From: Paracoccaceae bacterium
Lineage (GTDB): Bacteria; Pseudomonadota; Alphaproteobacteria; Rhizobiales; Stappiaceae
Assembly: GCA_002709505.1 (NCBI GenBank)
Contig: PARB01000045.1
Coordinates: forward strand, 21,502-85,501
Direction of reading: 5' to 3'
DNA length: 64,000 bases
Shown here: one piece after another, positions 1,573-30,585 of the stretch
Numbering within the stretch: the stretch's first letter is position 1
Layout of the letters: every line of letters begins with the position of its first letter
Program-made: the position numbers and the translations under genes
Notes under the pieces: model-generated
Told to the model about the DNA's origin: nothing
The model's database searches: none
Seen by the model: the letters and a program-made list of their open reading frames with translations, nothing else

Positions 1573-2137
1573 TTGCATTAATTTCAATAACTTACCTACA
1601 AATCGACCCAAACCGTTTCATGGACTATTTGAACGCGCGCAGAAAAGGGTCGCCAAACTTTCTCAAGGTTTTTTAAGCGTTACATCCCAGCCCACCAACA
1701 GATGCACGCCCATTGCAACCCAGAGACAACAGGTACGAGACGAAGGGTGAAACGCTGCCCAAAGCCGCCGATCCCAAAAATCAGTTTCGAAAGCCTCCCG
1801 AGCAATAATCTTCGTTCTCCGAAGTTGCGAAATACGCCGCCGTTCCTATCGTGTCGCCGTGTCGCCTGAAGGCCCCATCGCCTTCGATCTGGAAATGTTC
1901 TTTCATCCCCTCCGGGCTCAGAAACTCCAAGTGTTCTTCACTGTCTGCTTCCATTTCGACCAGAATTTGAGCTTTCCGCTGATCCACACGCCTGCCGGAA
2001 ATCCGCGACAGGCTGAAAAGGGTCGCAGGCAACCTCTCGGGATCAACGTACTTGCCGACGGAGGTCAGTCCTCGACTGCTTTGGCAGCGCGCACACAAGG
2101 ACACCTCATGAGGTCGAGATTGCCCACGTGATCGCCC

Positions 2138-2153
2138 TCCCCCATTTGAGGGA
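2138..2153 (+). promoter_or_regulatory. Palindromic operator, copy 1 (TCCCCCATTTGAGGGA)
   Basis: 67 bp upstream of ATG 2221; near-identical to sites at 10965, 13143 and 14331. Confidence 0.7.
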
Positions 2154-2220
2154 CGGCAGCCGGTTTACGACGGTGTAACTCTGAAACACCGAAGCATGAC
2201 ACGGATGGAGAACACGCCAC

Positions 2221-3555
2221 ATGATCCGGCAGTTTGCAGGAAGGGCTACCGGTCTGGTGCGCTCGTGGGCGGCGGCGGCGGCGCTTGTCGCGATGTCGAC
2301 GGTGGGGGCCACAGGCCAGATTCAGTTGCCGGAAGGCACGGTCGCCAGAAGCGTGATCCTTTCACTCTACACAATCAATTCCATGATGGAGCAGCAAGGC
2401 GCCGGACTTGAGGGTGGCACACATGTGATGACCTCCTTTCGCGCATTCCTCGCTCCCGAACTCATCAAGGAGATCGCAGCCAGCGACGGTGGCTTTCGTC
2501 CATTGGTCGGCGCGTATGAAGGCACCGTGGACGACTATGAACTGCGGATGTCAGCGGATCAGCCGGACGACAGCAGCATCGTTTTCGAGGCCGCAGTGGA
2601 ATCCAAAGGCACCGTCCGATTGGTTTCCTTCGCCCTCACGCAATCGGGTAGCCGCCCGTTGATAACGCGGATATGGGGAGATGGCTGGTCTTTCGGCAAA
2701 GGAAGCGCCGAGGCCGCGCTGCGGGCGCCTGCCGCATCCGCGCAGCCACCGGGCAAGCAAGAACAAGCGGCCGTTGCGGCAGCGGATGAAAGCGATGTCG
2801 CGGCCGGCAATGTCCCCGCCGGCACGGCAACACCTTCCCTGCCATTTCAGGACTCATTCGATGGCGCGGCTTTGGGCCCCCAATGGACTGTGATCGGCGA
2901 AGCCCCCGACAAATTCGTGGTCGAGGACGGGGTCATCTATCAGATTGCGACAGGCGGCGACGACGACTTCCGCAACGAGGGCAGCGAAAACATCTTCCAG
3001 CTGGGGGGAGCTCCGGAAGGCGATTTCGATATGACCTTGACCGGGAAACTCGAAGCCAAGACGGGCAGAGAAGGCGTGTGGCTGGGGCTCTATGAGGCTT
3101 CAACCAGCTTCCTTGCAGCCAATCTCTACGTCTACACCAATGGCTGCGGTCCCTATCTCGGCCTCTGGATCGTCAACCGGCAGCCCGTCGCCAATCTGGA
3201 CAAGCCGCTGACCAGCGAGTTCGACGACAATCTCTTCGACAAGGGCCCCGTTTTGTCCAGCACCTGCAATGCCGGCAACCGGGAAATTGCCGATACCATC
3301 TTGCAACGCCTCAACGAAACCGGCTTCTCGCTGACCCTGTCACGCCGCGGATTTCGCTATTTCGCGACAGCCGAACTCGATCTTCCAGCCTTCGGCGACA
3401 ATCCTGGCGGTCCGGTCACTGCAGTGACCAACAAGGTGGCCCGGACAACGGCAGCCGGCAATCCCGCCTTCATGCTGGGGCAATTCCGGCGCGCTGGAAA
3501 AGGTGAGTCAGTCGCGCAGTTCGACAGCTTTTCAATATCGGCACCGGTGAACTGA
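2221..3555 (+). CDS. Secreted protein: DUF3828-like N-domain plus concanavalin-like beta-sandwich C-domain
   Basis: Signal-like N-terminus. C-domain FQDSFDG..LGPQW...PEGDFD...GCGPYL...GESVAQFDSF aligns with the C-domain of 3573-5600. Confidence 0.7.
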   Translation: MIRQFAGRATGLVRSWAAAAALVAMSTVGATGQIQLPEGTVARSVILSLYTINSMMEQQGAGLEGGTHVMTSFRAFLAPELIKEIAASDGGFRPLVGAYEGTVDDYELRMSADQPDDSSIVFEAAVESKGTVRLVSFALTQSGSRPLITRIWGDGWSFGKGSAEAALRAPAASAQPPGKQEQAAVAAADESDVAAGNVPAGTATPSLPFQDSFDGAALGPQWTVIGEAPDKFVVEDGVIYQIATGGDDDFRNEGSENIFQLGGAPEGDFDMTLTGKLEAKTGREGVWLGLYEASTSFLAANLYVYTNGCGPYLGLWIVNRQPVANLDKPLTSEFDDNLFDKGPVLSSTCNAGNREIADTILQRLNETGFSLTLSRRGFRYFATAELDLPAFGDNPGGPVTAVTNKVARTTAAGNPAFMLGQFRRAGKGESVAQFDSFSISAPVN

Positions 3556-3572
3556 CGGCAGCCAACCGCACA

Positions 3573-5600
3573 ATGGGAACTCGGCCTATGTTTCGAACTC
3601 TGAGGATTGCATCTTGCGGCCTGTCCATGTCTCTGCTCGCGGCGTTCGGGGCGAGCGCTCAGGCACAGGACATCAATTCGGCTATCGCGCTTGTCGAGCA
3701 GTTTATCGATGCGCACAGGACCAGTCTCGACACCAGGAACGGCCCGTTGCTCAACAATGCGCAGGCGGCCGCGCCCTATGTGGTCGACGGATTGGCGGTA
3801 GACGGGTTGCAGGGACAACTCGGGTTCGACCCGGTCTACAACGCGCAGGATTATGAAATCTCGAACATCCGGGTCTTCGCCGACACCGAGACACCCTTCC
3901 TGCGCGGGGCGGCGCAGATACGCGTGACGCTTGAGAATTTCGGGCAGCGCCAGGAATTCGTCTACACGCTCGTGCCGGTATCACCCGACAATGTCTGGCA
4001 GATTTCCGATATCTACTCGGTCTCGAGCAACTGGTCGCTTGCCGACATGGCATACGATCTCGGGATCGACCTGAGTGGCGGAACGGGACCTGAAACAACC
4101 CTGGAAAATGCAGGTCCACCGATCCCCTGCGCAGTCGCATGCGGGACTCCCGTTCAGTCCCAGGCTCAGGATAGTCGCGCCCCGATCGCTTCGTCGGGCA
4201 CCGAAGCCAATACCGTATCCGAGCCGGTCATCGTTCCCGGGATGGAACAGGGCGACCTGCCCGGCAATGGCATCAATCCCGAGGGACGCAACCTCTTGAT
4301 CATTTTCGACGCCTCGGGATCGATGTGGGGGCAGATCGACGGCGTAGCCAAGATCACCACGGCCCGGCAGGCGCTTTCGGGAATCGTCGGGGATCTCGAT
4401 CCGGCGATGAATGTGGGGCTCCTGGCCTATGGGCATCGGCGGAAGGTAGATTGTACCGATACCGAACTCCTGTACCCGGTCGCCAACTATGATGCGGGAC
4501 GACTGCTACCGGCAATAGAGGGAATTTCTCCGCTCGGGAAAACGCCAATTGCCGGCGCACTGGAACAGGCGGCGGCCGCGATGCCCAAATCCGGGCAATC
4601 CTCGAGCGTGCTCTTGATATCGGACGGGCTGGAAACCTGCGGCGGCGATCCGTGTGCCGCAGCAGCCCGGCTGGCCGAGAGCAGGATCAAGACTCGCGTT
4701 CACGTCGTCGGCTTCGATCTGAGCGAGGAAGAGCATGCTGCGCTCCAGTGTATCGCAGACAACGGAAATGGCACCTATTATCCGGCAAACAACGCCCAGA
4801 GCTTTGTTGCCGCCGTCAACGACGTGGTCCGACAGGTCGAAGAAACAGCGCCAACCGCGCCGGAAGCTACCTCAGAACCTGCGTCAGAACCTGCAACGGC
4901 AATCGTTTTCGAGGAGACCTTTGACGGCCCGACGCTTGATGCCGCATGGCGGATAGACAATCCCGTCGAGGAACTCACCGCGTTTACACCCGAGGGCGCG
5001 ATGTTCGTGGCCGCGATTGGCAAGGCGCCCTACTTCAAAAATTCGGATGCAACAAATCGTTTCGTCCTGGAGCGCCCGCTCCCCGAGGGGGACTTCGATC
5101 TGGTTGTCGACGTCAGGATGAATGTGCAGACCAGGCATGAGGGGGTCATGTTGTCGCTGTTCAACGCCGCCCACCAGCAAATCGGCGCCCACATGTGGCT
5201 CGAGCCTCTAGGCTGCGGCAACTATCTCAACCTGTCGCTGGTCAGATTGTCCGGCAGCGAGGATGACCCGCAGACGACCTCATTTGACACCAGTCTGTTC
5301 AGCGGGCCATGGGCGGACGAGGTCTGCTACGATGGGCGCGCGCGGGCCGATGCGATTCTGGAGGCCCTGGCCCGGGACGGCGCCAAACTGCGTCTGAAGC
5401 GGCGTGACCGGGAAATCACGGCATCCCTGGAGCTGCAGATGCCGGGAAACGGAGAAACGCTCTCCTACACGACCGAACCGATCACGATGCTCCGCCTGTC
5501 GGGCGCCCCTAGCCTGCTTGCAGGGCACTGGCACAAGGCGCAGCCCGGCGAGAGCCATTTCGAGTTCGACCGCTTCGCCATAGAGGTTCCCCGGCAATGA
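3573..5600 (+). CDS. Secreted DUF3828-like + VWA + beta-sandwich protein
   Basis: Signal peptide (ASAQA); FDPVYNAQD motif; VWA MIDAS DASGSM, GKTPIA, LISDGLETCGGDPC, VHVVGF. Confidence 0.85.
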   Translation: MGTRPMFRTLRIASCGLSMSLLAAFGASAQAQDINSAIALVEQFIDAHRTSLDTRNGPLLNNAQAAAPYVVDGLAVDGLQGQLGFDPVYNAQDYEISNIRVFADTETPFLRGAAQIRVTLENFGQRQEFVYTLVPVSPDNVWQISDIYSVSSNWSLADMAYDLGIDLSGGTGPETTLENAGPPIPCAVACGTPVQSQAQDSRAPIASSGTEANTVSEPVIVPGMEQGDLPGNGINPEGRNLLIIFDASGSMWGQIDGVAKITTARQALSGIVGDLDPAMNVGLLAYGHRRKVDCTDTELLYPVANYDAGRLLPAIEGISPLGKTPIAGALEQAAAAMPKSGQSSSVLLISDGLETCGGDPCAAAARLAESRIKTRVHVVGFDLSEEEHAALQCIADNGNGTYYPANNAQSFVAAVNDVVRQVEETAPTAPEATSEPASEPATAIVFEETFDGPTLDAAWRIDNPVEELTAFTPEGAMFVAAIGKAPYFKNSDATNRFVLERPLPEGDFDLVVDVRMNVQTRHEGVMLSLFNAAHQQIGAHMWLEPLGCGNYLNLSLVRLSGSEDDPQTTSFDTSLFSGPWADEVCYDGRARADAILEALARDGAKLRLKRRDREITASLELQMPGNGETLSYTTEPITMLRLSGAPSLLAGHWHKAQPGESHFEFDRFAIEVPRQ

Positions 5601-6904
5601 TGCAGCGTCGCGCACTCGCTCCCGTTCTGCTGGCAACGGCCCTTGCCGCCATTCCGGCACTCCCGGTCTCGGCGCAGAGCGACATGGGCACTGCGGAGGG
5701 CGGCGAAAGCCTGTTCGATTGGCTGGAGACGCGGCAGGACAAAAAGAGCGATGGCTCCGGAATGAGCTTCGACGAGACGTCGGTTGCCGAGCATGACGCA
5801 CTGGCCTGCGCGGCCGGCATGGGCTGCGAGGGACTGGGCGTGAACCAGGACGACGCGCTGGTCCTGACCGGACACGATACCGCCGACACCGCGCGCGAGG
5901 CCTACCGCGAACAATATGGGGAGCCGCTTTCGGATCAAGGCTCGCCGAGCGATGGCGACGCCGCCAGCAACAATGAAATGAGCTTCGACGACACGTCCGT
6001 TGCCGAGCATGACGCGCTGGCCTGTGCGGCCGGCATGGGCTGCGAGGGACTGGGCGTGAACCAGGACGATGCGCTTGTCCTGACCGGACACGACACCGCC
6101 GACACCGCGCGCGAGGCCTACCGTGAACAGTACGGGGAGCCGCTTTCGGATCGGGACCCGCCGATCGATGGCGACGGCGCCGATCAGACCGGGGCCGGAA
6201 ACGAGGCAGAGCAGGACGGAAGCCTGTTCGACCGCGTGGAAACCGGACAGAAAGACGGCTCCAGCGGCAATGAAATGAGCTTCGACGATACGTCCGTTGC
6301 CGAGCATGACGCGCTGGCCTGCGCGGCGGGCATGGGCTGCGAGGGACTGGGCGTGAACCAGGACGACGCGCTGGTCCTGACCGGACACGACACCGCCGAC
6401 ACCGCGCGCGAGGCGTTCCGCGAAAAATATGGGGACCAGGAGTCAAGTACCGCCGAGGAGGCTACAGAACCGGACCTCTCCGTCGACACGAAAGACGGCG
6501 ACATGTCGTTCACTGAGGATGACGTCACCGACGACGGTGCCGACATGTCTTTCTCCGAGGACGAGGTGGTGCAGGACGGCTCGAATATGTCCTTCACCGA
6601 AGAGGAAGCGCTGGACAACCAAGACGGCGCGTTGCCCGAAAACAGGTTCACCGATGCAGACATCACCTCTTTCAGTCAGGAAGAACGCGCACTATGGGCA
6701 TGTGCTGCCGCTTTCGGCTGCAAGGGTGCTGCCGCAGGACTGACGCCTCACCAGGCTCTGCATCGGCTGGAATTGCCCGACTTTTCCTACGAATGGCCAC
6801 TTGCAGCCTGCGCGACCAACGCCCCGGGCGCCTGCGAGGAAATCGGCATCAGCTTGATGGATGCAATGCGGATCATGTCGCATCTGGCCAATCCCAACCG
6901 GTGA
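5597..6904 (+). CDS. Secreted acidic protein with three ~55-aa Cys-containing repeats
   Basis: Signal peptide ending PVSA; ATGA overlap with the upstream gene; three copies of MSFD.TSVAEHDALACAAGMGCEGLGVNQDDALVLTGHDTADTAREA.RE.YG. Confidence 0.8.
   Translation: MMQRRALAPVLLATALAAIPALPVSAQSDMGTAEGGESLFDWLETRQDKKSDGSGMSFDETSVAEHDALACAAGMGCEGLGVNQDDALVLTGHDTADTAREAYREQYGEPLSDQGSPSDGDAASNNEMSFDDTSVAEHDALACAAGMGCEGLGVNQDDALVLTGHDTADTAREAYREQYGEPLSDRDPPIDGDGADQTGAGNEAEQDGSLFDRVETGQKDGSSGNEMSFDDTSVAEHDALACAAGMGCEGLGVNQDDALVLTGHDTADTAREAFREKYGDQESSTAEEATEPDLSVDTKDGDMSFTEDDVTDDGADMSFSEDEVVQDGSNMSFTEEEALDNQDGALPENRFTDADITSFSQEERALWACAAAFGCKGAAAGLTPHQALHRLELPDFSYEWPLAACATNAPGACEEIGISLMDAMRIMSHLANPNR
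5762..6434 (+). repeat. Three intragenic direct repeats of ~160-175 bp
   Basis: Units start at atgagcttcgac at 5762, 5978 and 6275; in frame, differing mostly at synonymous positions. Confidence 0.95.
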
Positions 6905-7154
6905 CCGCGTTCGTCAGGCAGCCCTTCGGATCGGATGTGGCGCGGATTGCCGGTCTTGCCGCAGCAGCGGACTGCGACTGCGACGTCGCCGCGCCGGCGC
7001 AGCGACCTGGCAGCTGGAGTATTCAGGGCCTGTGAGCGCGAGGTGATTTCAGATTGCACCTGGTCATTCTGTCCGTCTCCGGCATCGCGGTGGGGGCGGT
7101 CAACGGCCGTGGCGGCATAGCGCGCGGGAGCGTCAAGGCGCCTCGTCCAAGTGC

Positions 7155-8972
7155 TCACCCCAGCCAGCCAAGCGGCCCCGACAGGAGCCGTGAGGTCAGC
7201 TCCGATTGGCTATGGACATTCATTTTGGAGAACGCCTTCTTCAGATGGCCGCGCACGGTGCTGACCAGAATGCCCAGCGTTTCCGCTGCTTCCTCCGGAG
7301 ACTTGCCGCCGGCGATGAGAAGCGCGACTTCGGCCTCCTTGCCCGTCAGGCCGTATGCAAGCTCGATGAGCGCCATGCGCGAGTCCGCCTCGAGATCCCG
7401 GCCGAGACTGGTACGCAGCACCAGAACGGAGGCAGGCCCCTGCCGCTGCAGGCCCGTGTGCTTCAACGCCTCGGGATAGAACCGGAAGCCAACAGGTGTG
7501 CCGTCGTGAAGAATGATCGTGTCGCCTCGGCCTGCCTGGTTGGCGGGATCGGCAAGCTCTCCGGTCAACAACTCGCGCGTGAGAGAGCTGGCAATCCCCT
7601 GTTCGGAACTTGGCAGGACACTTTCCGGGAAAAGCCGGGTGAGCGCCTCGAAGTAGGTTTGGTTGGAATGAAGCAACGCGCCGTCGCTATCGAGAATGGC
7701 GACGCCGATCTGAAGCCTTTCGACAACCGACTGTAGCAGGACGCCCAGCGTGGCGTTCATCATCACCTGCCGGTTCAGGTTGAACGAACGCTCCCAGTGC
7801 GGCATCAGCGACAGGATGCGCTTGTGCAGCGCCGCCTCCGCCAGATCGCCCGCGCGTTCGGCTTCATAGATCATCCGGTAGATGATCTCGTTCCAGCGGC
7901 TTTCGTCATCGATGGCGTTGTAACACAGTTCAACAAGCTCTCCCGGGCTCAACTCCGTGGACGCCCCGAGGGTGCTGGTCTTGGCCAACAGTTCCGATGT
8001 GAGTTCCGCGACCCCGATCTCGTCCCCCTCGTCGACCGGATGCCACTCCTCGCCGACCCAGCGGACAATGCGCTCGGCTATGCCGAAGCGCTTCTCCTCG
8101 AGAAACAGCGCCGACCGCGCGCCTTCGATCCGGGCCGACGCGATGTCATCGAAACCGACGCGTTCGAGAAAACGTTCCACAGGCGGCAGAAACCCGCCGT
8201 CGCGCAGCATGGCATCCTCGCCGCCGAACAGGATCAGGCAGCGCGTCCCCGGCAGAACGGAGGCCCCCTTTGGCCACTTCCAGGCTGAAAGCATGCCCGA
8301 AAAGATGTTGTACCAGTATGCGGGAGTGGGGGTCGGCCACCCCAGAGGATCGGCAACCACGGACTCGATCAGGGCGCGATCCGTGCTCATCACGTCTGCG
8401 GGATGATGGCGCTCCTTGAGGTGCGAGCCCAGGAACGCATAAAGGTGATGCAAGGACTGCTCGTCGGGAGCGTCCGGAGAGCCAAGTATGCAGCGTGTTC
8501 GCGAGAAGGTCTTGCCGAACATGGCAAGGGCACGCTGGTTCGGCGGTGGCGATATCAGGACAATATGGCGTGCGAGATCCGGCCAGGTCTTGAGCACTTC
8601 GAGCGTTAGCAGCGCCGTGATGTTGGGAACGACGACCAGCCGGTGCTCCCACGGGATGCCGGCGAAGCTCCTTTCGAATAGGAGGCGCATGTCCGCGACA
8701 GCGCGTTGCCAGCCATCTTCGTAGTCGAGATGTCCGAGAGGGGTTTGGCTGCCGGTAGACTTGCCGTGTCCGCGGATATCGCCCGAATAGGCATTCCATC
8801 CCAATTGGCGAAAGCCCGCCCCCAGATCGTGAAGCATCCCGGAATGGGTGGGCTGGCTATGCCCCAGAAACACCGCCCTATGGCCCTGAGCCGGCCTGTT
8901 GCCCGGGTCTACCGCCCACTTGCGCAAGAACAGCGGCTGGTTGCTCTCGCCCACCAGGAATTCCGCATCCAT
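7155..8972 (-). CDS. Alpha/beta-hydrolase-like (lysophospholipase-family) domain fused to PAS-like and LuxR HTH domains
   Basis: N-terminal DIRGHGKS and GGED motifs; C-terminal YGLTGKEAEVALLIAGGKSPEEAAETLGILVSTVRGHLKKAFSKMNVHSQSEL LuxR HTH; central VERLQIGVAILDSDGALLHSN PAS-like segment. Confidence 0.88.
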   Translation of the reverse strand: MDAEFLVGESNQPLFLRKWAVDPGNRPAQGHRAVFLGHSQPTHSGMLHDLGAGFRQLGWNAYSGDIRGHGKSTGSQTPLGHLDYEDGWQRAVADMRLLFERSFAGIPWEHRLVVVPNITALLTLEVLKTWPDLARHIVLISPPPNQRALAMFGKTFSRTRCILGSPDAPDEQSLHHLYAFLGSHLKERHHPADVMSTDRALIESVVADPLGWPTPTPAYWYNIFSGMLSAWKWPKGASVLPGTRCLILFGGEDAMLRDGGFLPPVERFLERVGFDDIASARIEGARSALFLEEKRFGIAERIVRWVGEEWHPVDEGDEIGVAELTSELLAKTSTLGASTELSPGELVELCYNAIDDESRWNEIIYRMIYEAERAGDLAEAALHKRILSLMPHWERSFNLNRQVMMNATLGVLLQSVVERLQIGVAILDSDGALLHSNQTYFEALTRLFPESVLPSSEQGIASSLTRELLTGELADPANQAGRGDTIILHDGTPVGFRFYPEALKHTGLQRQGPASVLVLRTSLGRDLEADSRMALIELAYGLTGKEAEVALLIAGGKSPEEAAETLGILVSTVRGHLKKAFSKMNVHSQSELTSRLLSGPLGWLG

Positions 8973-9288
8973 AAGTCATCTCCCAAGCCAATCAGGCCTT
9001 CACAAAAACGCGTAGGACAACCTGGAAATTGCCTACCGGTGATTGTGTGAACCTGCCCTGAATGGACCTGACAGCTTTTATGGTGCACGGGCGCGACTAG
9101 GAAAAGCCCTGGCGGAGATGAAGCGGACTGCGGCAAGGCAATTGAACCGCTCTTTCGGTGTGTCGTGGAGGAAAATCCAGTTTTCGAAGCAGGTCAATGT
9201 CCCGGTTTCGGTTCGGAACCTTCGCAAGCAGCAGGATCTTCCAGCACATCGGGCAGCGCGGCGGTGAATGCTGCGCGATCCCGCTGGA

Positions 9289-10314
9289 TCATTCGACATA
9301 GCGTTTGATGGAAAGCTTTGCGGCTTCGAATTCCTCCAGCATGCCAGGCAGCAAGCGGTCGATACCGCCCTCCGAGGCATTCTCACCAACCAGTTTGTCC
9401 TGCGCCATAAAGAACAACACATCGTCTGCAACGATGAACCCGACCGTGTGAAAGCGCGTCAGGAGATCGAGCATGGTGGCCTGGGTGGCCGGCGTGAGGA
9501 TTTGCAGAATTTCGCGCGAGACGTCGGTTTCGCTTCCTGCCGACAGGCAGCGCCCGGAGATATGAAATCGCTCGTTGAACTGGATCGACTCGGTCTTGAT
9601 GTCGCGATCCAGGGGGCCCTTGTTCACGATGTTCTCGGGGCGGACGACGGCGCGGATACCCGTTTTCCGGTCGATCCGATAGGCTCCGAGCACTGAAAAA
9701 AACTGGCCGTATCCGCCCCTGCCACCGCGGGCGTCCCGCCGCATGCCACGCGTGCCGAGACCGGCTTCCATCTGCATGGCACCGACCGCGATCCACAAGG
9801 GCAGCCCGTCCTGCGCACTCTCGCCCCAGAATTCCCCATCGAGCCGCGCGCCCATGAAGGAGCCGGCCTGAACCTTCGTCAGTTCGGGAATATGCGCCTC
9901 GATCTTTCTCAGGCGCGGCGGCTTTACGCGTTGCGAGCGGCGCTCGTAATTTCCATCGGAGTCCCGCAACGGCATCCGTTCGATCTGCCATTCCAGGAAT
10001 TTTCCAGTGTAGGACCAGCCCTTGTCCTGCGCGATACGGACCCTGCGGTGGGTTCTGCGACCGTCGACGTTCTCCAGTGCATCCACCAGAAAGATCGCGC
10101 CGAAGGCAAAAGTGGTCACGGCAACCGGAACAAAGGGAAAGCTGCTGCCGACAAAACCCGCTGCCAACGTCCACATCAGAGCGAGCAGCGCGGCCGGCAG
10201 GGGGAGACGTTTCAGCCAGATCGGAAGCGCAATGCCCTTGCGGCTTCCGGAAATATCGGGCGTTTCGACGACGATCTCGCCGTCGAACGGATCCCAATGC
10301 CGGCGCGTGCTCAT
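9289..10314 (-). CDS. DUF3137-like membrane protein
   Basis: Two N-terminal TM helices; DIKTESIQFNERF...ILTP motif; ATGA-coupled to lemA. Confidence 0.6.
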   Translation of the reverse strand: MSTRRHWDPFDGEIVVETPDISGSRKGIALPIWLKRLPLPAALLALMWTLAAGFVGSSFPFVPVAVTTFAFGAIFLVDALENVDGRRTHRRVRIAQDKGWSYTGKFLEWQIERMPLRDSDGNYERRSQRVKPPRLRKIEAHIPELTKVQAGSFMGARLDGEFWGESAQDGLPLWIAVGAMQMEAGLGTRGMRRDARGGRGGYGQFFSVLGAYRIDRKTGIRAVVRPENIVNKGPLDRDIKTESIQFNERFHISGRCLSAGSETDVSREILQILTPATQATMLDLLTRFHTVGFIVADDVLFFMAQDKLVGENASEGGIDRLLPGMLEEFEAAKLSIKRYVE

Positions 10315-10886
10315 GGGCGGCTTCCCGGCAGATCTATCCGGGGCATTGTGCGTACCGCTTCGGCCTCCGCCGTGGCCAGGGCGAACGGTTTTGCATGCTC
10401 GAACCGCATGACGCGGGCGATCCAGTTGGACGGAATTGCATCGAGCTGGGTGTTGTAGCGCTCGACATTGGCGTTGTAGAGCCGCCTCGCCGCGCTGATC
10501 TGGTCTTCGGTTTCTTCCAACTGCTTTTGCAACGCGCGGACATTGCCCGTCGAACCGATCTCCGGCGTATCCTCGGAGTAGGCGACAAAGGCGCTTAGTG
10601 CGGCAGACAGTTCCGCCTCGGCCTCTTGAACGCTTGCGATGTCGCCGTTGCGCGCGCTCATGGCAGCCCGGCGTGCATCGAGAAGCCTGTCGAAGATCCG
10701 GTTTTCCTGCGCCATCGCGCCCCTGACGGAATCGACAAGGGCGGGGATGAGGTCGTGACGGCGCTTGAGCTGCACGTCGATCCCCGAATAGCCGGTCGTC
10801 ACCGCGTTCTTCGCCGCTGCCAGCCGGTTCTGCAGGTAGATGAATATGAGTATGCCCGCGGCAATGGTGAGGATAGTCGCGATCAT
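10311..10886 (-). CDS. lemA: LemA family protein
   Basis: N-terminal TM helix; IDVQLKRRHDLIP and ETEDQISAARRLYNANV..YN signatures. Confidence 0.93.
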   Translation of the reverse strand: MIATILTIAAGILIFIYLQNRLAAAKNAVTTGYSGIDVQLKRRHDLIPALVDSVRGAMAQENRIFDRLLDARRAAMSARNGDIASVQEAEAELSAALSAFVAYSEDTPEIGSTGNVRALQKQLEETEDQISAARRLYNANVERYNTQLDAIPSNWIARVMRFEHAKPFALATAEAEAVRTMPRIDLPGSRP

Positions 10887-10964
10887 GTCCGGTGCCGGTT
10901 GCCTCCTGAAACGCGGCGCGTCTTGCGCCGATTAATGACGTAACCGGGCACGGATATGACGGCG

Positions 10965-10980
10965 TCCCCCAAATGAGGGA
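10965..10980. promoter_or_regulatory. Palindromic operator, copy 2 (TCCCCCAAATGAGGGA)
   Basis: In the divergent lemA/symporter intergenic region; 14 of 16 positions identical to copy 1. Confidence 0.7.
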
Positions 10981-11070
10981 GGAGGCAAGGCCGTGGCAAG
11001 GATCGAGGCAAACAGGGGCTGCGCGAACAATAGCTGGCGATTGGGCGGCGACGAATGATACGTGTCACCG

Positions 11071-12405
11071 ATGCAATTGCCCGCTGACATTCTGGAACTC
11101 GGCCCCGTCGTCTTCGTGCTGCTCGCGCCACTTGTCTATGCGCTTGTGCGCGCGCGCAATGCGACACGTGCCGATTTCATTTTCAATTCGGGCCGCACCG
11201 GAACCCTCGCGACCGTTGCGGGGATCGTTTGCGGGAACATCGGCGCCGGCACCTTCGTCGCGCTCCTGCTCTTTTCGGATGCCAGCCCGATACTTGGCGT
11301 TTCGCTGGCCGCCGCATATGCGCTCGGTCTTGTTATATGCGCTGCGATCGCGCCAGCGGTTCACCGGCAGTCTCGCCGGTATGGCGTTCATGGGCTCGTC
11401 GACCTCATCGTGGCGGCCCATGGCGTGCGTCACCCATTGGCGATCTGGCTCCCGATCGCTTTCGTTTTTCTGCTGCGCACGGCGGTGCAACTTCTGGCGC
11501 TGGCGGCGATCCTGGCCGCGATCATGCCAGTCTCGAACCTGGCAGCGCTGGTTCTGGCGAGCGCGCTCACCGGGATCTACACCGCCATTGGCGGCTATCG
11601 CGTGGCGACGGAAACCGATATCTTTCAGGCCATTGTCATCCTCGCCGGGATTGGCGTGCTCACGGTCACGAATGCCGGCGGCATGCCGCACATCGAAAAC
11701 ATATTCGATCTCGGCCCCTATAAATTGCCGCTGCTTGTCGGCATCTGGTTGTTCATTCCCGTCAGCGCGGTCCTTGCCATCGACAATTGGCAACGAATGG
11801 CAACCGCCCGCGCGCCGGCAGTCGCGCGCAGGGGGTTCCTGCTCGCTGCTCCCCTTTGTCTGTTTTGCTACATGGGCATTGTCTGGCTGGGGCTCAAAGG
11901 CCATGCGGGCGAAGAGGTTCTCGCCGTATTGCGCGCGACCATGCCCGATCACTGGAGGTGGCTGGCCGATGTCATGCTGATTGCAGTGCTCATGTCGACC
12001 ATGGACACATTCGTCATGCCACTCGTCACCAGTCTGGAACGGACGCGCTATACATTGCGTCAGCTCCAGTTAATCGTTCTGACGCTGTTTGCCGTGCTTG
12101 CCATCGCCGCCTACACCATGGGGCCGCTGCTCAATTCGATCATTGCCGCATTCAGCTCGCTGGTGGTTTTCCTGCCTGCGGTCCTCGCCGCGCTGCTCTG
12201 GCGGCGGCTCAGCGCCGCCGCCGCAATCGTCTCGCTGAATCTCGGCGTGGCGGTCAGCCTGATCCTCGTCGGCGTCGATCTGAACTACGCCGCCTTCGGG
12301 GGCTTCGCGGCCGCATCGTTCACCTATGGCATTGCATGGATGCTTGCCTTGCGAAAAGACGCGCGGCCTCGTCGAAACGACGAGTTGCTGCGAAACGACC
12401 GATGA
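11071..12405 (+). CDS. Sodium:solute symporter (SSS) family permease
   Basis: Polytopic membrane protein; GNIGAGTF and GIYTAIGGYRVATETDIFQ motifs. Confidence 0.85.
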   Translation: MQLPADILELGPVVFVLLAPLVYALVRARNATRADFIFNSGRTGTLATVAGIVCGNIGAGTFVALLLFSDASPILGVSLAAAYALGLVICAAIAPAVHRQSRRYGVHGLVDLIVAAHGVRHPLAIWLPIAFVFLLRTAVQLLALAAILAAIMPVSNLAALVLASALTGIYTAIGGYRVATETDIFQAIVILAGIGVLTVTNAGGMPHIENIFDLGPYKLPLLVGIWLFIPVSAVLAIDNWQRMATARAPAVARRGFLLAAPLCLFCYMGIVWLGLKGHAGEEVLAVLRATMPDHWRWLADVMLIAVLMSTMDTFVMPLVTSLERTRYTLRQLQLIVLTLFAVLAIAAYTMGPLLNSIIAAFSSLVVFLPAVLAALLWRRLSAAAAIVSLNLGVAVSLILVGVDLNYAAFGGFAAASFTYGIAWMLALRKDARPRRNDELLRNDR

Positions 12406-12415
12406 CGCAAGCCGA

Positions 12416-12937
12416 TCACTCGGTCCCTTCGATTTCGGGAAGGTCCTGGCTCCGGTCCGTCTCGATCACGATCCCGGCGAACCCCTCGCCGTTGAGGTGA
12501 ATTTCCGGACAGGCCCTGGGCTCGTGCCTGGACTGATCGTACAGACACTCCTTGATCTCGTAGGCGATCTTCAAATCGGCACAAGGCGTTTGCGTGTTGA
12601 TCCCGGTGGTGCTGCGAAATTCCGACATGCCCTCATCGTTCCAGCCCCTGAAGACCCATTGCAGCGGCAAACCGGTCGACGTGTCATCGCGCGTATCGAT
12701 ATAGCGCTCTTCACCATAGAGGGCGTAGAAGCCCTGTGCCTGCTTGTTCACGGTGACGAAGGTTTCGGGTCTGCAGACGCCATTCTCGGTTTCCTCCGCC
12801 CGCACCACCACCTCCAATTCTCCCGGAGGGACGGTACTGGCAGGCTCCCGCTCGCTGAGAGCGACAGCAACGATGCCTGCGGCGAGCACCAGGCCGCCAA
12901 CAAATGAGGATGCGATCAGATACTTTCGAACCGGCAT
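12416..12937 (-). CDS. Exported or membrane-anchored hypothetical protein with 4 Cys
   Basis: Hydrophobic N-terminal segment; AGGAGA RBS upstream. Confidence 0.7.
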   Translation of the reverse strand: MPVRKYLIASSFVGGLVLAAGIVAVALSEREPASTVPPGELEVVVRAEETENGVCRPETFVTVNKQAQGFYALYGEERYIDTRDDTSTGLPLQWVFRGWNDEGMSEFRSTTGINTQTPCADLKIAYEIKECLYDQSRHEPRACPEIHLNGEGFAGIVIETDRSQDLPEIEGTE

Positions 12938-13142
12938 TGCCTTCTCCTAGCAAGCTGTTGCGGGACGGCAGCGGCCTTTGCTCGGCCCGTGACCGCGCGC
13001 ATTCGGCACGAGAAGAACGAAGCCGGAAAGTCCGACCGTTGCAGCCGGCGTCAATTGATTGAAACGTCTGCGCGTGAGCAATGCATATCTCCTGACAGGT
13101 GGGGGTCGGAAGCATTGCTGCATCGGAAGGCCGGCGGTCTCC

Positions 13143-13158
13143 CCTCCCAAATGGGAGA
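13143..13158 (-). promoter_or_regulatory. Palindromic operator, copy 3 (CCTCCCAAATGGGAGA)
   Basis: About 205 bp upstream of the 12937 start; same CCCA-WW-TGGG core. Confidence 0.6.
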
Positions 13159-13233
13159 GAAAGATCTCTTTTTTGAAGGCAGACGCTTTGGTGCTTCATC
13201 AGGTCGCCTAACCTGCCGCAGCCGGTGCCGTGC

Positions 13234-14163
13234 TCAGGTACCGCGCGCGTCGGCGAGGCCGAGACCGTCAATGATGTCGGTCACCAGCTCGAGCTCGGCC
13301 AACAGGTTGTAGGCACGTTCCTTCCCATCGCGAACTTCACGAAAAACGTTTCCGATCTCGAAACGCCGGGCCGCCGAGCCGAGACGTATGGTGATCAGCA
13401 ACCGATTGCCCACGAACGACATCGACACGCCCCGCCGGTTGTTGAGATGTTCGGTAAGTTCCACGATCCGTTCCATGAAGCGCGGAGTAAACAGCTGCCC
13501 CGCTTCAATCGGATTCGTGGAAAAGACCTCGAACCGATCTTCGAACCGGGAATCCTGCAGCCGGACGCGCTCGCCGTTCTGGCGAAATCGTTCCAGCGCG
13601 TTCCCGATCCAGTCGGTATCGGCAACGACAACTGTTTCGCCGTCGAAAGGCTTGTTGAAGCTGTAAGCCAGCATCAAGGCACGCCACTTGCTCTCCCTTT
13701 TCGAAAACCGGCCCTCGCACAGCTCGAAATCCACACCGCCGACACGCCCGTTGATGCGGTCTTCAAGCTTCGCGCTCTGATAAAACGGCAAGAGCGGCTC
13801 GAAGCGATCCAGAGGAAAGTCGAATTTTCCGAGCGCATATTCAAAGCCGAGATACGCGCAGACGCCCCCGTTCAGAACCTGCTTGTAGCGTTTGGCGAAC
13901 CCCAGATAGGCCAACCCCGCGCCCAACAAACCACAGAAGCCGACAGCAAAGGCAGCCAGCGCGATCGGACCATCGGATCGGCCCATCTGCGCCAGGAGCG
14001 CAACAGCGCCGAAGCCGGCTACGCCGAGTGCTCCAAGCCCCGCCACGAGCCACATCCGCGTCTTGCGTTGTGCTTCGAGACCGACGAGCGCCGGTTCGAT
14101 CTCGCGCGCGTAATAGCTGTCGAAATCCTGTTCGCGGGCATTGATCCCGCCGGGTGCAGTCAT
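13234..14163 (-). CDS. DUF3137 family membrane protein
   Basis: Two TM helices; EDRINGRVGGVDFELCE and RVRLQDSRFEDRFEVFSTNPIEAGQLFTPRFMERI motifs; GGGAGAGG RBS before ATG 14163. Confidence 0.8.
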   Translation of the reverse strand: MTAPGGINAREQDFDSYYAREIEPALVGLEAQRKTRMWLVAGLGALGVAGFGAVALLAQMGRSDGPIALAAFAVGFCGLLGAGLAYLGFAKRYKQVLNGGVCAYLGFEYALGKFDFPLDRFEPLLPFYQSAKLEDRINGRVGGVDFELCEGRFSKRESKWRALMLAYSFNKPFDGETVVVADTDWIGNALERFRQNGERVRLQDSRFEDRFEVFSTNPIEAGQLFTPRFMERIVELTEHLNNRRGVSMSFVGNRLLITIRLGSAARRFEIGNVFREVRDGKERAYNLLAELELVTDIIDGLGLADARGT

Positions 14164-14330
14164 GGCGCCTCTCCCGCGCGGCAAATCGGAGGAGAATGCG
14201 ACATTGCGCAATATGCGCTGGCGTCGACCGGACTGGCAGCTGGGAACCAGATCATGAAAACTCCCGGTCCTTCGAAAGGACAGTTGAACTCACTTCTGGT
14301 CAAGCTTGGTCCAGCCATGAGCCACACGCC

Positions 14331-14347
14331 TCTCCCATATTGGGGGG
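14331..14347 (-). promoter_or_regulatory. Palindromic operator, copy 4 (TCTCCCA-TAT-TGGGGGG, 3-bp spacer variant)
   Basis: About 167 bp upstream of ATG 14163; same half-sites with one extra central base. Confidence 0.45.
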
Positions 14348-14413
14348 GCATGTCGCCGATCCAGTTTCACACTGGAAGCAGACATCGCGAGATCATTTGC
14401 ATGGGAGAAAGTG

Positions 14414-14429
14414 TTGGTAGCGGAGGAGG
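14414..14429. repeat. att core direct repeat (ttggtagcggaggagg)
   Basis: Exact 16-bp match to 30508-30523 at the tRNA 3' end; 149 bp upstream of the integrase. Confidence 0.93.
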
Positions 14430-14552
14430 CCACCAAGTTACCGTCCGACGATGTTTTTCGATGCCCTTTTTTGTCTATGTAAATCAGACATTTATCTGAA
14501 TTCTATGTCCACATAGGTCTTGATGTGCCTACATGTTTCCTCCATATTTTAG

Positions 14553-14569
14553 GGGTAGAAAATGGGTAG
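14553..14569 (+). promoter_or_regulatory. Putative integrase arm-type sites GGGTAG-N5-GGGTAG
   Basis: Same motif and spacing at 30450-30466 inside the other end of the element. Confidence 0.75.
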
Positions 14570-14578
14570 GGATGGGTC

Positions 14579-30508: not shown

Positions 30509-30585
30509 TGGTAGCGGAGGAGGGACTCGAACCCCCGACACGCGGATTATGATTCCGCTGCTCTAACCGGCTGAGCTACTCCGCC
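30509..30585 (-). tRNA. tRNA with CAT anticodon (probably elongator tRNA-Met)
   Basis: Reverse complement GGCGGAGTAGCTCAGCCGGTTAGAGCAGCGGAATCATAATCCGCGTGTCGGGGGTTCGAGTCCCTCCTCCGCTACCA; 77 nt with encoded CCA. Confidence 0.97.

What the first reader, a model, noticed from the sequence alone, without database searches (positions are those of the whole stretch)
7155..8972. Catalytically dead alpha/beta-hydrolase apparently repurposed as the sensor domain of a LuxR regulator
Seen: the N-terminal ~310 aa follow the PldB/monoacylglycerol-lipase pattern (DIRGHGKS, LGH...GW...VADM, GGED). The nucleophile elbow GHSMG is replaced by VVVPNITA, the oxyanion HG by HS, and the catalytic-His motif GARHE by GARSA. 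A shortened helical segment, a PAS-like segment and an intact LuxR HTH follow in one reading frame. Known: hydrolase folds act as receptors in plants (GID1, D14, KAI2) and RsbQ works beside a PAS protein in Bacillus, but I do not know a characterised pseudo-hydrolase-LuxR fusion. Inference: a one-component receptor for a lysophospholipid, acylglycerol or acyl-type signal.
Basis: partly seen in the sequence, partly recalled or inferred. Interest (0 to 1): 0.82.

Follow-up and report, generated by a model that had tools for sequence, protein, structure and literature searches.

The report
Dead-lipase sensor fused to LuxR regulator
This gene encodes a DNA-binding switch whose large lipase-like front domain lost its catalytic serine and histidine long ago yet is the best-conserved part of the protein; it belongs to a rare, unstudied family that always sits beside a matching 16-bp palindrome in front of genes for secreted and membrane proteins.

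Summary
Observation confirmed. ORF 7155-8972 (-) encodes a 605-aa protein with four parts: a monoacylglycerol-lipase/esterase-like alpha/beta-hydrolase domain (1-310), a helical linker with a 60-residue helix, a PAS-like domain and a GerE/LuxR HTH.

Against its closest active relatives (HG, GHSMG, D, GARHE) it reads HS, VPNIT, D, GARSA. In 75 homologue clusters (31-87% identity) Asn is at the nucleophile position in 71 and no member has the His. This is not decay: dN/dS of the hydrolase domain is 0.04-0.06, as low as the HTH, while the PAS-like part is 0.2-0.35.

The C-terminal half folds like VqmA and EL222 (PAS plus LuxR HTH), and the model supports a homodimer.

A 16-bp palindrome (YCNCYCAWWTGRGNGR) lies before four transcription units around the gene. 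The three perfect copies are the only ones in the 4.1-Mb genome. The same palindrome flanks the homologue in all 11 other loci examined.

Best reading: a dimeric one-component regulator of a small, horizontally moving set of secreted and membrane-protein genes, with the dead hydrolase as its input domain. The acyl or lipid ligand is untested.

The scan noted this family before on other DNA (e1-5226153, e1-4180868), with similar conclusions. I found no paper on it.

The parts
7155..8972 (-). Whole gene: 605-aa pseudo-hydrolase / PAS-like / LuxR regulator (P0001)
   Evidence: ORF list and translation. Pfam Hydrolase_4 plus GerE. 76 homologue clusters with the same architecture. Single copy in its own genome.
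8043..8972 (-). Residues 1-310: alpha/beta-hydrolase domain (MGL/carboxylesterase-like), catalytically dead
   Evidence: Pfam PF12146, E 2e-13. AF2 pLDDT mostly above 90. Foldseek top hits are human MGL, Mtb Rv0183, 6KHK lipase and 5O7G esterase, with target TM 0.73-0.79. Profile match to 5O7G, E 1.6e-53. dN/dS 0.044 and 0.056.
8856..8861 (-). H38-S39: oxyanion 'HG' motif changed to 'HS'
   Evidence: Alignment A2 with active relatives. In 75 family members H38 is present in 73; position 39 is S in 60, G in 10, T in 3 and A in 1.
8613..8636 (-). V113-A120 (VVVPNITA): former nucleophile elbow; Asn117 (nt 8622-8624) replaces the catalytic Ser
   Evidence: A2 aligns PNI with HSM of GHSMG. N117 is present in 71 of 75 members, with G in 2, S in 1 and T in 1. 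Coordinates checked.
8283..8534 (-). Residues 147-230: five-helix cap (lid) domain, retained at full length and highly conserved
   Evidence: AF2 helices 147-163, 171-181, 191-194, 199-207 and 217-230. No large gaps against active relatives. 20 of 84 columns are at least 90% conserved, and dN/dS is 0.047-0.078.
8214..8216 (-). D253: catalytic-acid position, retained
   Evidence: Invariant in 75 of 75 members and aligned with the acid Asp of active relatives.
8109..8123 (-). G284-A288 (GARSA): former catalytic-His motif GARHE; Ser287 replaces His
   Evidence: A2 alignment. Position 287 is S in 52, T in 9, A in 8, G in 3, Q in 2 and C in 1; His occurs in none of 75. R286 is invariant.
7713..8042 (-). 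Residues 311-420: linker, two short helices and one ~60-residue helix (358-419) leading into the PAS-like domain; its C-terminal end lies in the modelled dimer interface
   Evidence: AF2 secondary structure. Dimer-model interface covers residues 402-426. Conserved motifs ELVELCYNAIDDE and LMPHWxRS.
7398..7712 (-). Residues 421-525: PAS-like alpha/beta domain
   Evidence: AF2 five-strand sheet with helices. Foldseek of the C-half hits VqmA and EL222. ~375-aa LuxR relatives aligned here have weak PAS_4/PAS_8 hits. This is the least constrained part, with dN/dS 0.21-0.35.
7158..7397 (-). Residues 526-605: GerE/LuxR-type helix-turn-helix DNA-binding domain
   Evidence: Pfam GerE, E 3e-9. PDB sequence hits LiaR, VraR and NarL. 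pLDDT above 90.
2138..2153 (.). Palindrome site 1 (perfect match to YCNCYCAWWTGRGNGR), 68 bp before the start of the secreted-protein operon
   Evidence: The orthologous position is conserved in L001, L003, L014 and L005.
10965..10980 (.). Palindrome site 2 (perfect), between the divergent lemA operon and the SSF-type symporter gene
   Evidence: The orthologous position is conserved in L001, L003 and L014.
13143..13158 (.). Palindrome site 3 (perfect), upstream of the 173-aa gene (12416-12937, -)
   Evidence: The orthologous site is perfect in L014 and degenerate, about two mismatches, in L001.
14331..14346 (.). Palindrome site 4 (1 mismatch, or a 1-nt insertion), upstream of the DUF3137 gene (13234-14211, -)
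   Evidence: Contigs of closely related strains lack one base at 14342, which makes the site a perfect match (table 4). Orthologous sites occur in L001 and L014.
9289..10886 (-). lemA (10311-10886) and a 341-aa two-TM protein (9289-10314), directly upstream of the regulator on the same strand; likely target operon, possibly co-transcribed with the regulator
   Evidence: Pfam LemA, E 2e-42. Synteny with the regulator in L001, L003, L004, L007 and L014.
11062..12405 (+). SSF-family (sodium:solute symporter-like) membrane protein; conserved neighbour and likely target
   Evidence: Pfam SSF, E 1.4e-7. Atlas neighbours are SSF clusters. Adjacent to the regulator in L001, L003, L004, L007 and L014 at 43-89% identity.
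2221..6904 (+). Operon of three exported proteins (444 aa; 675 aa with VWA; 435-aa acidic repeat protein), convergent with the regulator; likely target
   Evidence: Signal-peptide-like N-termini. VWA_2, E 1e-10. VWA homologue near the regulator in L001, L003, L004, L005, L014 and L016.
12416..14211 (-). 173-aa gene (12416-12937) and DUF3137 gene (13234-14211), each preceded by a palindrome; likely targets
   Evidence: DUF3137, E 1e-25. Homologues in L001 and L014.

Best explanation
The gene encodes a cytoplasmic one-component transcription regulator. Its C-terminal half is a long helix, a PAS-like domain and a GerE/LuxR HTH. This half forms a symmetric dimer that binds the 16-bp palindrome TC(N)C(Y)CAWWTG(R)G(N)GA. 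The palindrome lies in front of four adjacent transcription units: a secreted VWA-protein operon; the divergent lemA operon (lemA and a 341-aa membrane-protein gene) and SSF symporter gene, which share one site; a 173-aa gene; and a DUF3137 gene. Its N-terminal 310 residues are a monoacylglycerol-lipase/carboxylesterase-type alpha/beta-hydrolase that cannot hydrolyse, because Ser is replaced by Asn117, His by Ser287 and the oxyanion Gly by Ser39. This domain has been kept as the signal-input module. Most probably it binds, without turning over, a small hydrophobic or acyl-type ligand under its conserved cap and passes the signal through the long helix to the PAS-HTH dimer. Shown: the architecture, the loss of Ser and His across the family, the purifying selection, the fold matches, and the co-occurrence of palindrome and regulator. 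Inferred: that this protein binds the palindrome, the direction of regulation, that the dead domain binds a ligand, and what that ligand is.
For: Architecture and dead site. In 75 homologue clusters N117 occurs in 71, no member has His at 287, and D253 and R286 are invariant.

Functional constraint: dN/dS of the hydrolase domain is 0.044 and 0.056, against 0.079 and 0.027 for the HTH and 0.205 and 0.346 for the PAS-like part. The cap is as conserved as the core.

Fold: the full-length model has pLDDT 88.3 and pTM 0.77. The N-domain matches MGLs, 6KHK and 5O7G. The C-half matches VqmA-DPO, EL222 and TraR over about 210 residues, E 6e-5 to 2e-3.

Dimer: the model supports binding but does not show it. 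Score 0.61, best of 3 controls 0.00. This mark was reached by 20 of 30 proteins solved as pairs and 1 of 23 solved as single chains. The runs agree in at least 55% of contacts and partner pLDDT is at least 68. The interface is symmetric through residues 402-426, the PAS sheet and the last HTH helix. Because VqmA and TraR dimers are solved, the pass may partly reflect likeness to them.

Operator: the window has 4 sites against 0.53 expected, and 0 of 100 shuffles reach 4. The only 3 perfect matches in the 4.1-Mb genome are these. Eleven other loci carrying a 37-87% identical homologue hold 19 perfect matches in 202 kb, against 0.10 in shuffles and 0 for the reversed pattern. Ten of these 19 are in five loci fetched after the pattern was fixed. 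In five carrier genomes, 10 of 15 genome-wide perfect matches lie within 7 kb of the regulator gene. Five non-carrier relatives have 0, 0, 2, 1 and 2 matches, none of the symmetric TC.C...G.GA type.

Synteny with LemA, the 341-aa protein, SSF and VWA genes.
Against: No experiment links this protein to the palindrome. Another factor could bind it, although this regulator is the only DNA-binding gene common to all loci.

No Pfam PAS model hits this protein itself.

Ligand binding by the dead domain is untested, and the pocket could not be measured because no coordinates are available.

The PAS-like domain could be the true ligand sensor.

The sets of genes behind the palindromes differ between genera (FG-GAP, TMEM43, transglutaminase-like, SH3_3), so the regulon does not point to one pathway or one ligand.

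The window has no palindrome directly before the regulator gene, so autoregulation is uncertain here.

Part of the pattern was tuned on loci L001-L007.
Confidence: 0.6

Rival explanations
1. The dead hydrolase domain is not a small-molecule receptor. It would instead be a protein-protein or intramolecular control module, acting as an autoinhibitory clamp, an oligomerisation scaffold or a docking site for a partner protein. The parallel is the enzyme-fold protein PqsE, which activates the LuxR-type RhlR independently of catalysis. Any chemical sensing would be done by the PAS-like domain, or not at all.
For: pTM 0.77 for the full-length model suggests a defined packing of the N-domain against the rest. 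PAS domains are the usual ligand sites in VqmA and EL222, the closest folds. PqsE-RhlR complexes appear among the fold hits of the C-half (7r3e, 8dq0). The family-specific invariant residues are largely surface-capable aromatic and Pro residues of the cap, such as WPTPT and YW..IF.G..SAW.WP.
Against: The PAS-like part is the least constrained region (dN/dS 0.2-0.35; 6 of 105 columns at least 90% conserved), whereas the residues at the former active site (H38, Q40, N117, I118, D253, R286) are near-invariant. That pattern is expected if the cleft itself is still used. No conserved candidate partner gene is common to all loci.
Confidence: 0.25
2. The N-domain is still an enzyme that uses a non-canonical mechanism or a relocated set of catalytic residues, so the protein is a bifunctional enzyme-regulator.
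For: The acid D253, H38, H69, S72 and R286 are invariant. One divergent member (P0082) has Ser at the nucleophile position.
Against: D65, R67, H69, H38 and R286 are equally conserved in the active stand-alone relatives, where they are not the triad, so they are not new catalytic residues. No member has His at the base position, and 71 of 75 have Asn, a non-nucleophile, at the elbow. The oxyanion Gly is also replaced. P0082 also lacks the His.
Confidence: 0.05
3. The fusion is an accidental or decaying gene, and the domain is a relic without function.
For: Catalytic residues are lost. The family is rare: 0 of 400 class-wide and 5 of 400 order-wide genomes sampled carry it.
Against: There are 76 clusters at full length with no frameshifts. 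dN/dS is 0.04-0.06 at dS of about 0.7-1.2. 56 of 310 columns are at least 90% conserved down to 31% overall identity. The model is confident.
Confidence: 0.02

Closest known systems
VqmA (Vibrio cholerae and phage VP882; PDB 6IDE, 6UGL, 6KJU, 7DWM) and EL222 (Erythrobacter litoralis; 3P7N, 8A5R)
   Same: Both are one-component regulators made of a PAS/LOV domain followed by a GerE/LuxR HTH, and they act as dimers on palindromic DNA. They are the best fold matches to residues 312-605 (E 6e-5 to 4e-4 over about 210 columns). There is a weak profile match to 7DWM across PAS plus HTH (E 1.2e-3).
   Different: Those proteins are about 210-250 aa and sense through the PAS/LOV pocket (DPO or flavin; titles, own knowledge). 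This protein carries an extra 310-aa pseudo-hydrolase and a ~60-residue helix in front, and its PAS-like part is the least conserved region. Sequence identity is 13-20%.
Monoacylglycerol lipases and related esterases of Pfam Hydrolase_4 (human MGL 3HJU/3PE6, M. tuberculosis Rv0183 6EIC, B. coagulans carboxylesterase 5O7G, lipase 6KHK)
   Same: They share the fold, the strand order and the helical cap. Also shared are the D-x-R-G-H-G motif, the acid Asp, and the Arg of the G-A-R-H-E motif.
   Different: The Ser nucleophile, the His base and the oxyanion Gly are replaced by Asn117, Ser287 and Ser39. The cap carries family-specific invariant residues. The domain is fused to a DNA-binding module.
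Plant alpha/beta-hydrolase receptors GID1, D14 and KAI2, and Bacillus RsbQ (own knowledge; PMC3531792, PMC9470386 for D14/KAI2/RsbQ)
   Same: A hydrolase fold is used for signal perception rather than metabolism. GID1, like this protein, lacks the catalytic His.
   Different: D14, KAI2 and RsbQ keep a working triad and hydrolyse their ligand. All of them signal through separate partner proteins (F-box/DELLA, RsbP), not through a fused HTH. They belong to other hydrolase subfamilies, and no sequence relation was tested here. The resemblance is functional analogy only.
PAS4-LuxR solos of Photorhabdus, and the ~375-aa PAS-LuxR regulators of Proteobacteria
   Same: The ~375-aa regulators match residues ~360-604 at about 30% identity and share the helix, PAS-like and HTH module. 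PAS4-LuxR solos are described as non-AHL LuxR receptors (PMC4235431).
   Different: They have a different ~135-aa N-terminal region in place of the hydrolase domain. Their ligands and targets are unrelated or unknown.
PqsE-RhlR of Pseudomonas aeruginosa (PDB 8DQ0, 7R3E)
   Same: An enzyme-fold protein controls a LuxR-type regulator independently of its catalysis (own knowledge). The complexes appear among the fold hits of the C-half.
   Different: PqsE has a metallo-beta-lactamase fold, is a separate polypeptide and is still catalytically competent. RhlR senses an AHL through an autoinducer-binding domain, which is absent here (no PF03472 hit).

Membership tests
Alpha/beta-hydrolase fold, Pfam Hydrolase_4 (PF12146; MGL/lysophospholipase-type) | Profile match above the curated cut-off | tested here: met
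   50.5 bits against a cut-off of 27, residues 32-292.
Alpha/beta-hydrolase fold, Pfam Hydrolase_4 (PF12146; MGL/lysophospholipase-type) | Canonical fold with a helical cap, similar to solved MGLs and esterases | tested here: met
   AF2 pLDDT above 90 over most of 1-310. Foldseek E 1e-13 with target TM 0.73-0.79 to MGL, Rv0183, 6KHK and 5O7G.
Active serine hydrolase (MGL/esterase enzyme class) | Nucleophile Ser in a G-x-S-x-G elbow | tested here: not met
   The elbow reads V-P-N-I-T. Asn117 aligns with the Ser of GHSMG and is Asn in 71 of 75 family members.
Active serine hydrolase (MGL/esterase enzyme class) | Catalytic His after the last core strand (GARHE) | tested here: not met
   The motif reads GARSA. 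No His occurs at this column in any of 75 members.
Active serine hydrolase (MGL/esterase enzyme class) | Catalytic acid Asp | tested here: met
   D253 is invariant and aligns with the acid Asp of the active relatives.
Active serine hydrolase (MGL/esterase enzyme class) | Oxyanion-hole H-G motif | tested here: not met
   The motif is H38-S39. Position 39 is Ser in 60 of 75 members and Gly in 10.
Active serine hydrolase (MGL/esterase enzyme class) | Measurable ester hydrolysis | not testable with these tools
   This needs an enzyme assay.
LuxR/FixJ/GerE-type HTH regulators (PF00196) | C-terminal four-helix GerE domain above the curated cut-off | tested here: met
   36.6 bits against a cut-off of 23.5, residues 542-594. 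PDB sequence hits LiaR, VraR and NarL. Foldseek target TM 0.84-0.87 to LiaR and DegU DNA-binding domains.
LuxR/FixJ/GerE-type HTH regulators (PF00196) | Binds a dyad-symmetric DNA site as a dimer | tested here: inconclusive
   A conserved 16-bp palindrome co-occurs with the gene in 12 of 12 loci. The homodimer model scores 0.61 against controls of 0.00. No binding experiment was done.
PAS-LuxR one-component receptors (VqmA / EL222 type) | PAS fold directly preceding the GerE HTH | tested here: met
   AF2 shows a five-strand sheet at 422-520. Foldseek to VqmA and EL222 covers PAS plus HTH, E 6e-5 to 4e-4. However, no Pfam PAS model hits this protein, and related ~375-aa proteins give only sub-threshold PAS_4/PAS_8 hits.
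PAS-LuxR one-component receptors (VqmA / EL222 type) | Ligand or chromophore bound in the PAS pocket | not tested
   No residue-level comparison with the DPO or flavin sites was made. The PAS-like part is the least conserved region.
Quorum-sensing LuxR receptors (AHL type) | N-terminal autoinducer-binding domain (PF03472) | tested here: not met
   No Autoind_bind hit appears at E up to 1. TraR, SdiA and QscR appear only as weaker fold hits.
Hydrolase-fold receptors (GID1, D14/KAI2, RsbQ) | Ligand bound in the former or actual active-site cleft and required for signalling | not testable with these tools
   Model coordinates are not exposed and no ligand is known. Only indirect support exists: near-invariant cleft residues and a conserved cap.

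The most novel reading that the evidence does not exclude
This would be a bacterial counterpart of the plant hydrolase-fold hormone receptors. A dead monoacylglycerol-lipase-type domain would bind, without cleaving, a lipid-derived cue such as a lysophospholipid, monoacylglycerol, fatty acid or other acyl compound released from the envelope or from a host or alga. Through a fused PAS-LuxR dimer it would directly switch on a horizontally mobile ~12-kb cassette of secreted VWA proteins and membrane proteins (LemA, DUF3137, symporter) marked by its own palindromic operator.
Probability: 0.35. Interest if true: 0.8.

Novelty: new variant of a known kind. Interest (0 to 1): 0.66.

Why it matters
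One-component regulators often borrow enzyme folds as sensors. Four targeted full-text searches found no described bacterial transcription factor whose input domain is a catalytically dead alpha/beta-hydrolase.

This family offers a clean, testable case. The dead domain is the most conserved part of the protein. The likely operator is a defined 16-bp palindrome. The likely regulon is small, local and made of secreted and envelope proteins of unknown function. The whole cassette moves between families of marine Alphaproteobacteria.

Finding the ligand would show what a lipase fold can sense once it stops cutting. It would also give a first functional handle on LemA, DUF3137 and the VWA proteins encoded next to it. 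Finally, databases currently label these proteins 'alpha/beta hydrolase' or 'serine aminopeptidase domain-containing protein', which is misleading for a protein that cannot be a serine hydrolase.

Tried and rejected
1. A 14-nt version of the palindrome (CTCCCAWWTGGGAG, up to 3 mismatches) was not enriched in the window: 6 found against 7.8 expected. It was replaced by the 16-nt degenerate pattern.

2. The sigma-70 promoter scan of 1900-14600 gave 1 hit against 2.7 expected. The position of the palindromes relative to promoters, and hence activator versus repressor, could not be decided.

3. Pfam on residues 300-540 alone gave no PAS hit.

4. NCBIfam gave only HTH-level matches for the regulator and nothing useful for the neighbours.

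5. The class-wide genome sample (400 genomes) had no homologue. This shows rarity in those searched, not absence.

6. Literature searches for hydrolase-LuxR fusions, inactive hydrolase-fold transcription factors and LemA+DUF3137 found nothing relevant.

7. Contigs from RNA libraries of three studies cover the whole cluster, including the regulator. Contigs cannot prove transcription or rank genes, and DNA carry-over is possible, so I do not use this as evidence of expression.

8. I looked for a simple link between the recognition-helix sequence (RGH against RTH) and the arm type of the palindrome (TCCC against TCAC). L005 breaks the pattern, so I dropped it.

10. A relocated triad was considered and rejected, because the invariant His, Ser and Asp residues outside the triad are shared with active relatives.
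Full report
**1. Observation**

The region 7155-8972 holds one open frame on the minus strand of 605 codons. It starts at an ATG preceded by GGGAG. Orthologues begin at the same residue.

Pfam finds Hydrolase_4 (residues 32-292, 50.5 bits against a cut-off of 27) and GerE (542-594, 36.6 bits against 23.5).

**2. The hydrolase domain is catalytically dead, and has been for the whole history of the family**

An exhaustive representative search found about 20 full-length clusters at 50% identity. More distantly it found ~300-aa stand-alone hydrolases matching residues 10-306 at 19-28% identity. Aligned together, twelve stand-alone proteins carry HG, GHSMG, an acid Asp and GARHE. The query and five fused relatives show substitutions at these positions:

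| Position | Active relatives | This protein |
|---|---|---|
| Oxyanion motif | H-G | H38-S39 |
| Nucleophile elbow | G-H-S-M-G | V-P-N117-I-T |
| Catalytic acid | Asp | D253 (kept) |
| His motif | G-A-R-H-E | G-A-R286-S287-A |

In a 75-sequence family alignment reaching 31% identity:
- The nucleophile column is Asn in 71, Gly in 2, Ser in 1 and Thr in 1.
- The His column is never His (S 52, T 9, A 8, G 3, Q 2, C 1).
- D253 and R286 are invariant.

The other invariant polar residues (D65, R67, H69, H38) are equally conserved in the active relatives. They are therefore not a relocated triad.

A profile of this alignment matches the Bacillus coagulans carboxylesterase 5O7G over its full length, cap included (E 1.6e-53). 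It then matches lipase 6KHK and the monoacylglycerol lipases.

**3. It is not decaying**

Codon alignments with the 85% and 87% identical orthologues (L001, L014) give the following dN/dS values, at dS of about 0.7-1.2 over the whole gene:

| Region | dN/dS vs L001 | dN/dS vs L014 |
|---|---|---|
| Hydrolase domain | 0.044 | 0.056 |
| HTH | 0.079 | 0.027 |
| PAS-like part | 0.205 | 0.346 |

The cap, usually the variable part of such enzymes, is as conserved as the core: 20 of 84 columns are at least 90% conserved. The residues that line the former active site (H38, Q40, N117, I118, D253, R286) are near-invariant.

**4. Structure**

AF2 with the family alignment gives pLDDT 88.3 and pTM 0.77. 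The model shows:
- an alpha/beta-hydrolase core with a five-helix cap (147-230);
- two short helices (321-352);
- one helix of about 60 residues (358-419);
- a five-stranded PAS-like domain (422-520);
- a four-helix HTH (529-604).

Foldseek places the N-domain next to human MGL, M. tuberculosis Rv0183, 6KHK and 5O7G (E 1e-13 to 1e-10, target TM 0.73-0.79).

The separately modelled C-half (pLDDT 86.3) is closest to VqmA-DPO (7DWM, 6UGL, 6IDE) and EL222 (3P7N). These alignments span both PAS and HTH (E 6e-5 to 4e-4), with AHL receptors behind them.

By sequence, residues ~360-604 match a large set of ~375-aa LuxR regulators at about 30% identity. Their equivalent segment gives weak PAS_4/PAS_8 hits. 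The query itself gives no Pfam PAS hit.

A homodimer model of residues 312-605 supports binding but does not show it:
- Score 0.61, best of 3 controls 0.00.
- The mark was reached by 20 of 30 proteins solved as pairs and 1 of 23 solved as single chains.
- The runs agree in at least 55% of contacts, and partner pLDDT is at least 68.

The interface is symmetric. It runs through the end of the long helix (402-426), the PAS sheet and the last HTH helix. Because dimers of VqmA and TraR are solved, part of this pass may reflect likeness to them.

**5. DNA target and regulon**

The pattern YCNCYCAWWTGRGNGR, with up to 1 mismatch, occurs four times in the 64-kb window, at 2138, 10965, 13143 and 14331. 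The expectation is 0.53, and no shuffle out of 100 reaches four.

Each site lies in front of a transcription unit flanking the regulator:
- the operon of three exported proteins (444 aa, VWA protein, acidic repeat protein);
- the divergent lemA operon (lemA plus a 341-aa membrane-protein gene) and SSF symporter gene, which share the site at 10965;
- a 173-aa gene;
- a DUF3137 gene.

In the whole 4.1-Mb assembly the only three perfect matches are these.

Eleven loci from other genomes carry a homologue of 37-87% identity. All have the motif in nearby intergenic DNA. They hold 19 perfect matches in 202 kb, against 0.10 in shuffles and 0 for the reversed pattern. Ten of the 19 are in five loci fetched after the pattern was fixed.

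In five carrier genomes, 10 of 15 genome-wide perfect matches lie within 7 kb of the regulator gene. Five related genomes without the gene have 0, 0, 2, 1 and 2 matches, none of the symmetric TC.C...G.GA type.

Distant homologues use TCACYCAWWTGRGTGA, and closer ones use TCCCYC...GRGGGA or TCTCCC...GGGAGA.

In two loci a site lies directly upstream of the regulator gene (L005, one mismatch; L016, perfect). In the window the regulator may instead be read through from the lemA operon.

Contigs of closely related strains lack one base at 14342. That change turns the imperfect fourth site into a perfect one.

**6. Neighbours**

LemA, the 341-aa two-TM protein, the SSF-type symporter and a VWA protein recur beside the regulator across genera. 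More distant loci put FG-GAP, TMEM43-like, transglutaminase-like and SH3_3 proteins behind the palindrome. The common theme is exported or membrane proteins, not a metabolic pathway, so the neighbours do not reveal the ligand.

**7. Distribution**

The family is rare and patchy among sampled genomes: 0 of 400 class-wide and 5 of 400 in the same order. Two of three sampled genus-mates lack the gene, and the third has only a 47% identical homologue. By contrast, a genome of another family carries the whole cassette at 71-89% protein identity. A phage-type integrase gene follows at 14579. The cassette therefore appears to move horizontally. Named carriers are marine Alphaproteobacteria plus one Ferrimonas.

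**8. Interpretation**

Shown:
- the architecture;
- family-wide loss of Ser and His, and replacement of the oxyanion Gly in most members;
- strong purifying selection on the dead domain;
- a PAS-LuxR-like C-half;
- tight co-occurrence of the gene with a specific palindrome.

Inferred:
- the protein binds that palindrome as a dimer and controls the adjacent units;
- the dead domain is the input module;
- it binds a hydrophobic or acyl ligand.

The last point is the weakest. The main rival is that the domain acts through protein contacts, as with PqsE-RhlR, and that any chemical sensing sits in the PAS-like part. The conservation pattern (cleft residues fixed, PAS-like part relaxed) argues moderately against that rival.

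**9. Prior knowledge**

Four targeted full-text searches found no paper on a hydrolase-LuxR fusion of this kind. PAS4-LuxR solos (PMC4235431) and the plant hydrolase receptors with RsbQ (PMC3531792, PMC9470386) are the nearest described concepts.

Within this scan the family was noted before on other DNA. Note e1-4180868 is a first reading only. Note e1-5226153 includes a follow-up that reached similar conclusions: dead domain most conserved, conserved operator, exported-protein neighbours, VqmA and EL222 as closest known. My results on this window were obtained independently up to that point and agree.

Noticed in passing
window 14342 (within palindrome site 4, 14331-14346): Contigs of 95-99% identical strains in two runs of one study lack one base here. 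That converts the one-mismatch site TCTCCCATATTGGGGG into a perfect match of the pattern. The window copy may carry a 1-nt insertion or an assembly error (table 4).
   Followed up: partly
window 2138-14346 versus L014 (G585:C2:934400-954300): The whole ~12-kb cassette is shared in the same order with a genome of a different family, at 71-89% protein identity. It comprises three exported proteins, the regulator, the 341-aa protein, LemA, SSF and the 173-aa gene. Two of three sampled genus-mates lack the regulator. This suggests horizontal transfer of the cassette as a unit.
   Followed up: partly
L006:9991-11670 (-) and L006:12068-13675 (+): Beside one homologue lie two further regulators with the reverse order (N-terminal region, GerE HTH, C-terminal alpha/beta-hydrolase). 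Their elbow reads A-H-D-x-G, with Asp at the nucleophile position, and the His is kept. A similar protein, P0153, has Val at that position and no His. Hydrolase-LuxR fusions therefore exist in at least two orders with different active-site states.
   Followed up: partly
proteins P0082, P0086, P0087, P0089 (31-42% identical full-length homologues): A divergent subclade has G-G-G-(V/L)-S-G or G-Q-S-I-S at the elbow and R-A-N at the former His motif. It is dead by a different set of substitutions.
   Followed up: no
window 2221-3555 and 3573-5600: The 444-aa exported protein and the C-terminal ~240 residues of the VWA protein are paralogous (about 33% identity over about 240 aa). This is seen both in the window's orthologues and in L003.
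   Followed up: no
own genome, contigs C6:1862, C9:32079, C33:4610, C88:7278: One-mismatch copies of the palindrome with symmetric arms, such as TCACCTAAATGGGTGA and TCCTCCATATGGGTGA, occur elsewhere in the genome. The total is 17 one-mismatch-or-better sites against 3 for the reversed control. They could be further targets or chance matches.
   Followed up: no
window 7398-7712 (residues 421-525): The PAS-like segment evolves four to eight times faster than the hydrolase domain (dN/dS 0.21-0.35 against 0.04-0.06). This is unexpected if it were the main ligand-binding site.
   Followed up: partly
window 14579-15874 and 30509-30585: A phage-type integrase gene (Arm-DNA-bind_3, Phage_int_M, Phage_integrase) starts about 230 bp after the last palindrome. 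A tRNA-Met gene lies 16 kb further on.
   Followed up: no
L003:5423-6133: In the Roseibium locus a canonical AHL-type LuxR gene (Autoind_bind plus GerE) sits between the symporter gene and lemA, inside the cassette.
   Followed up: no
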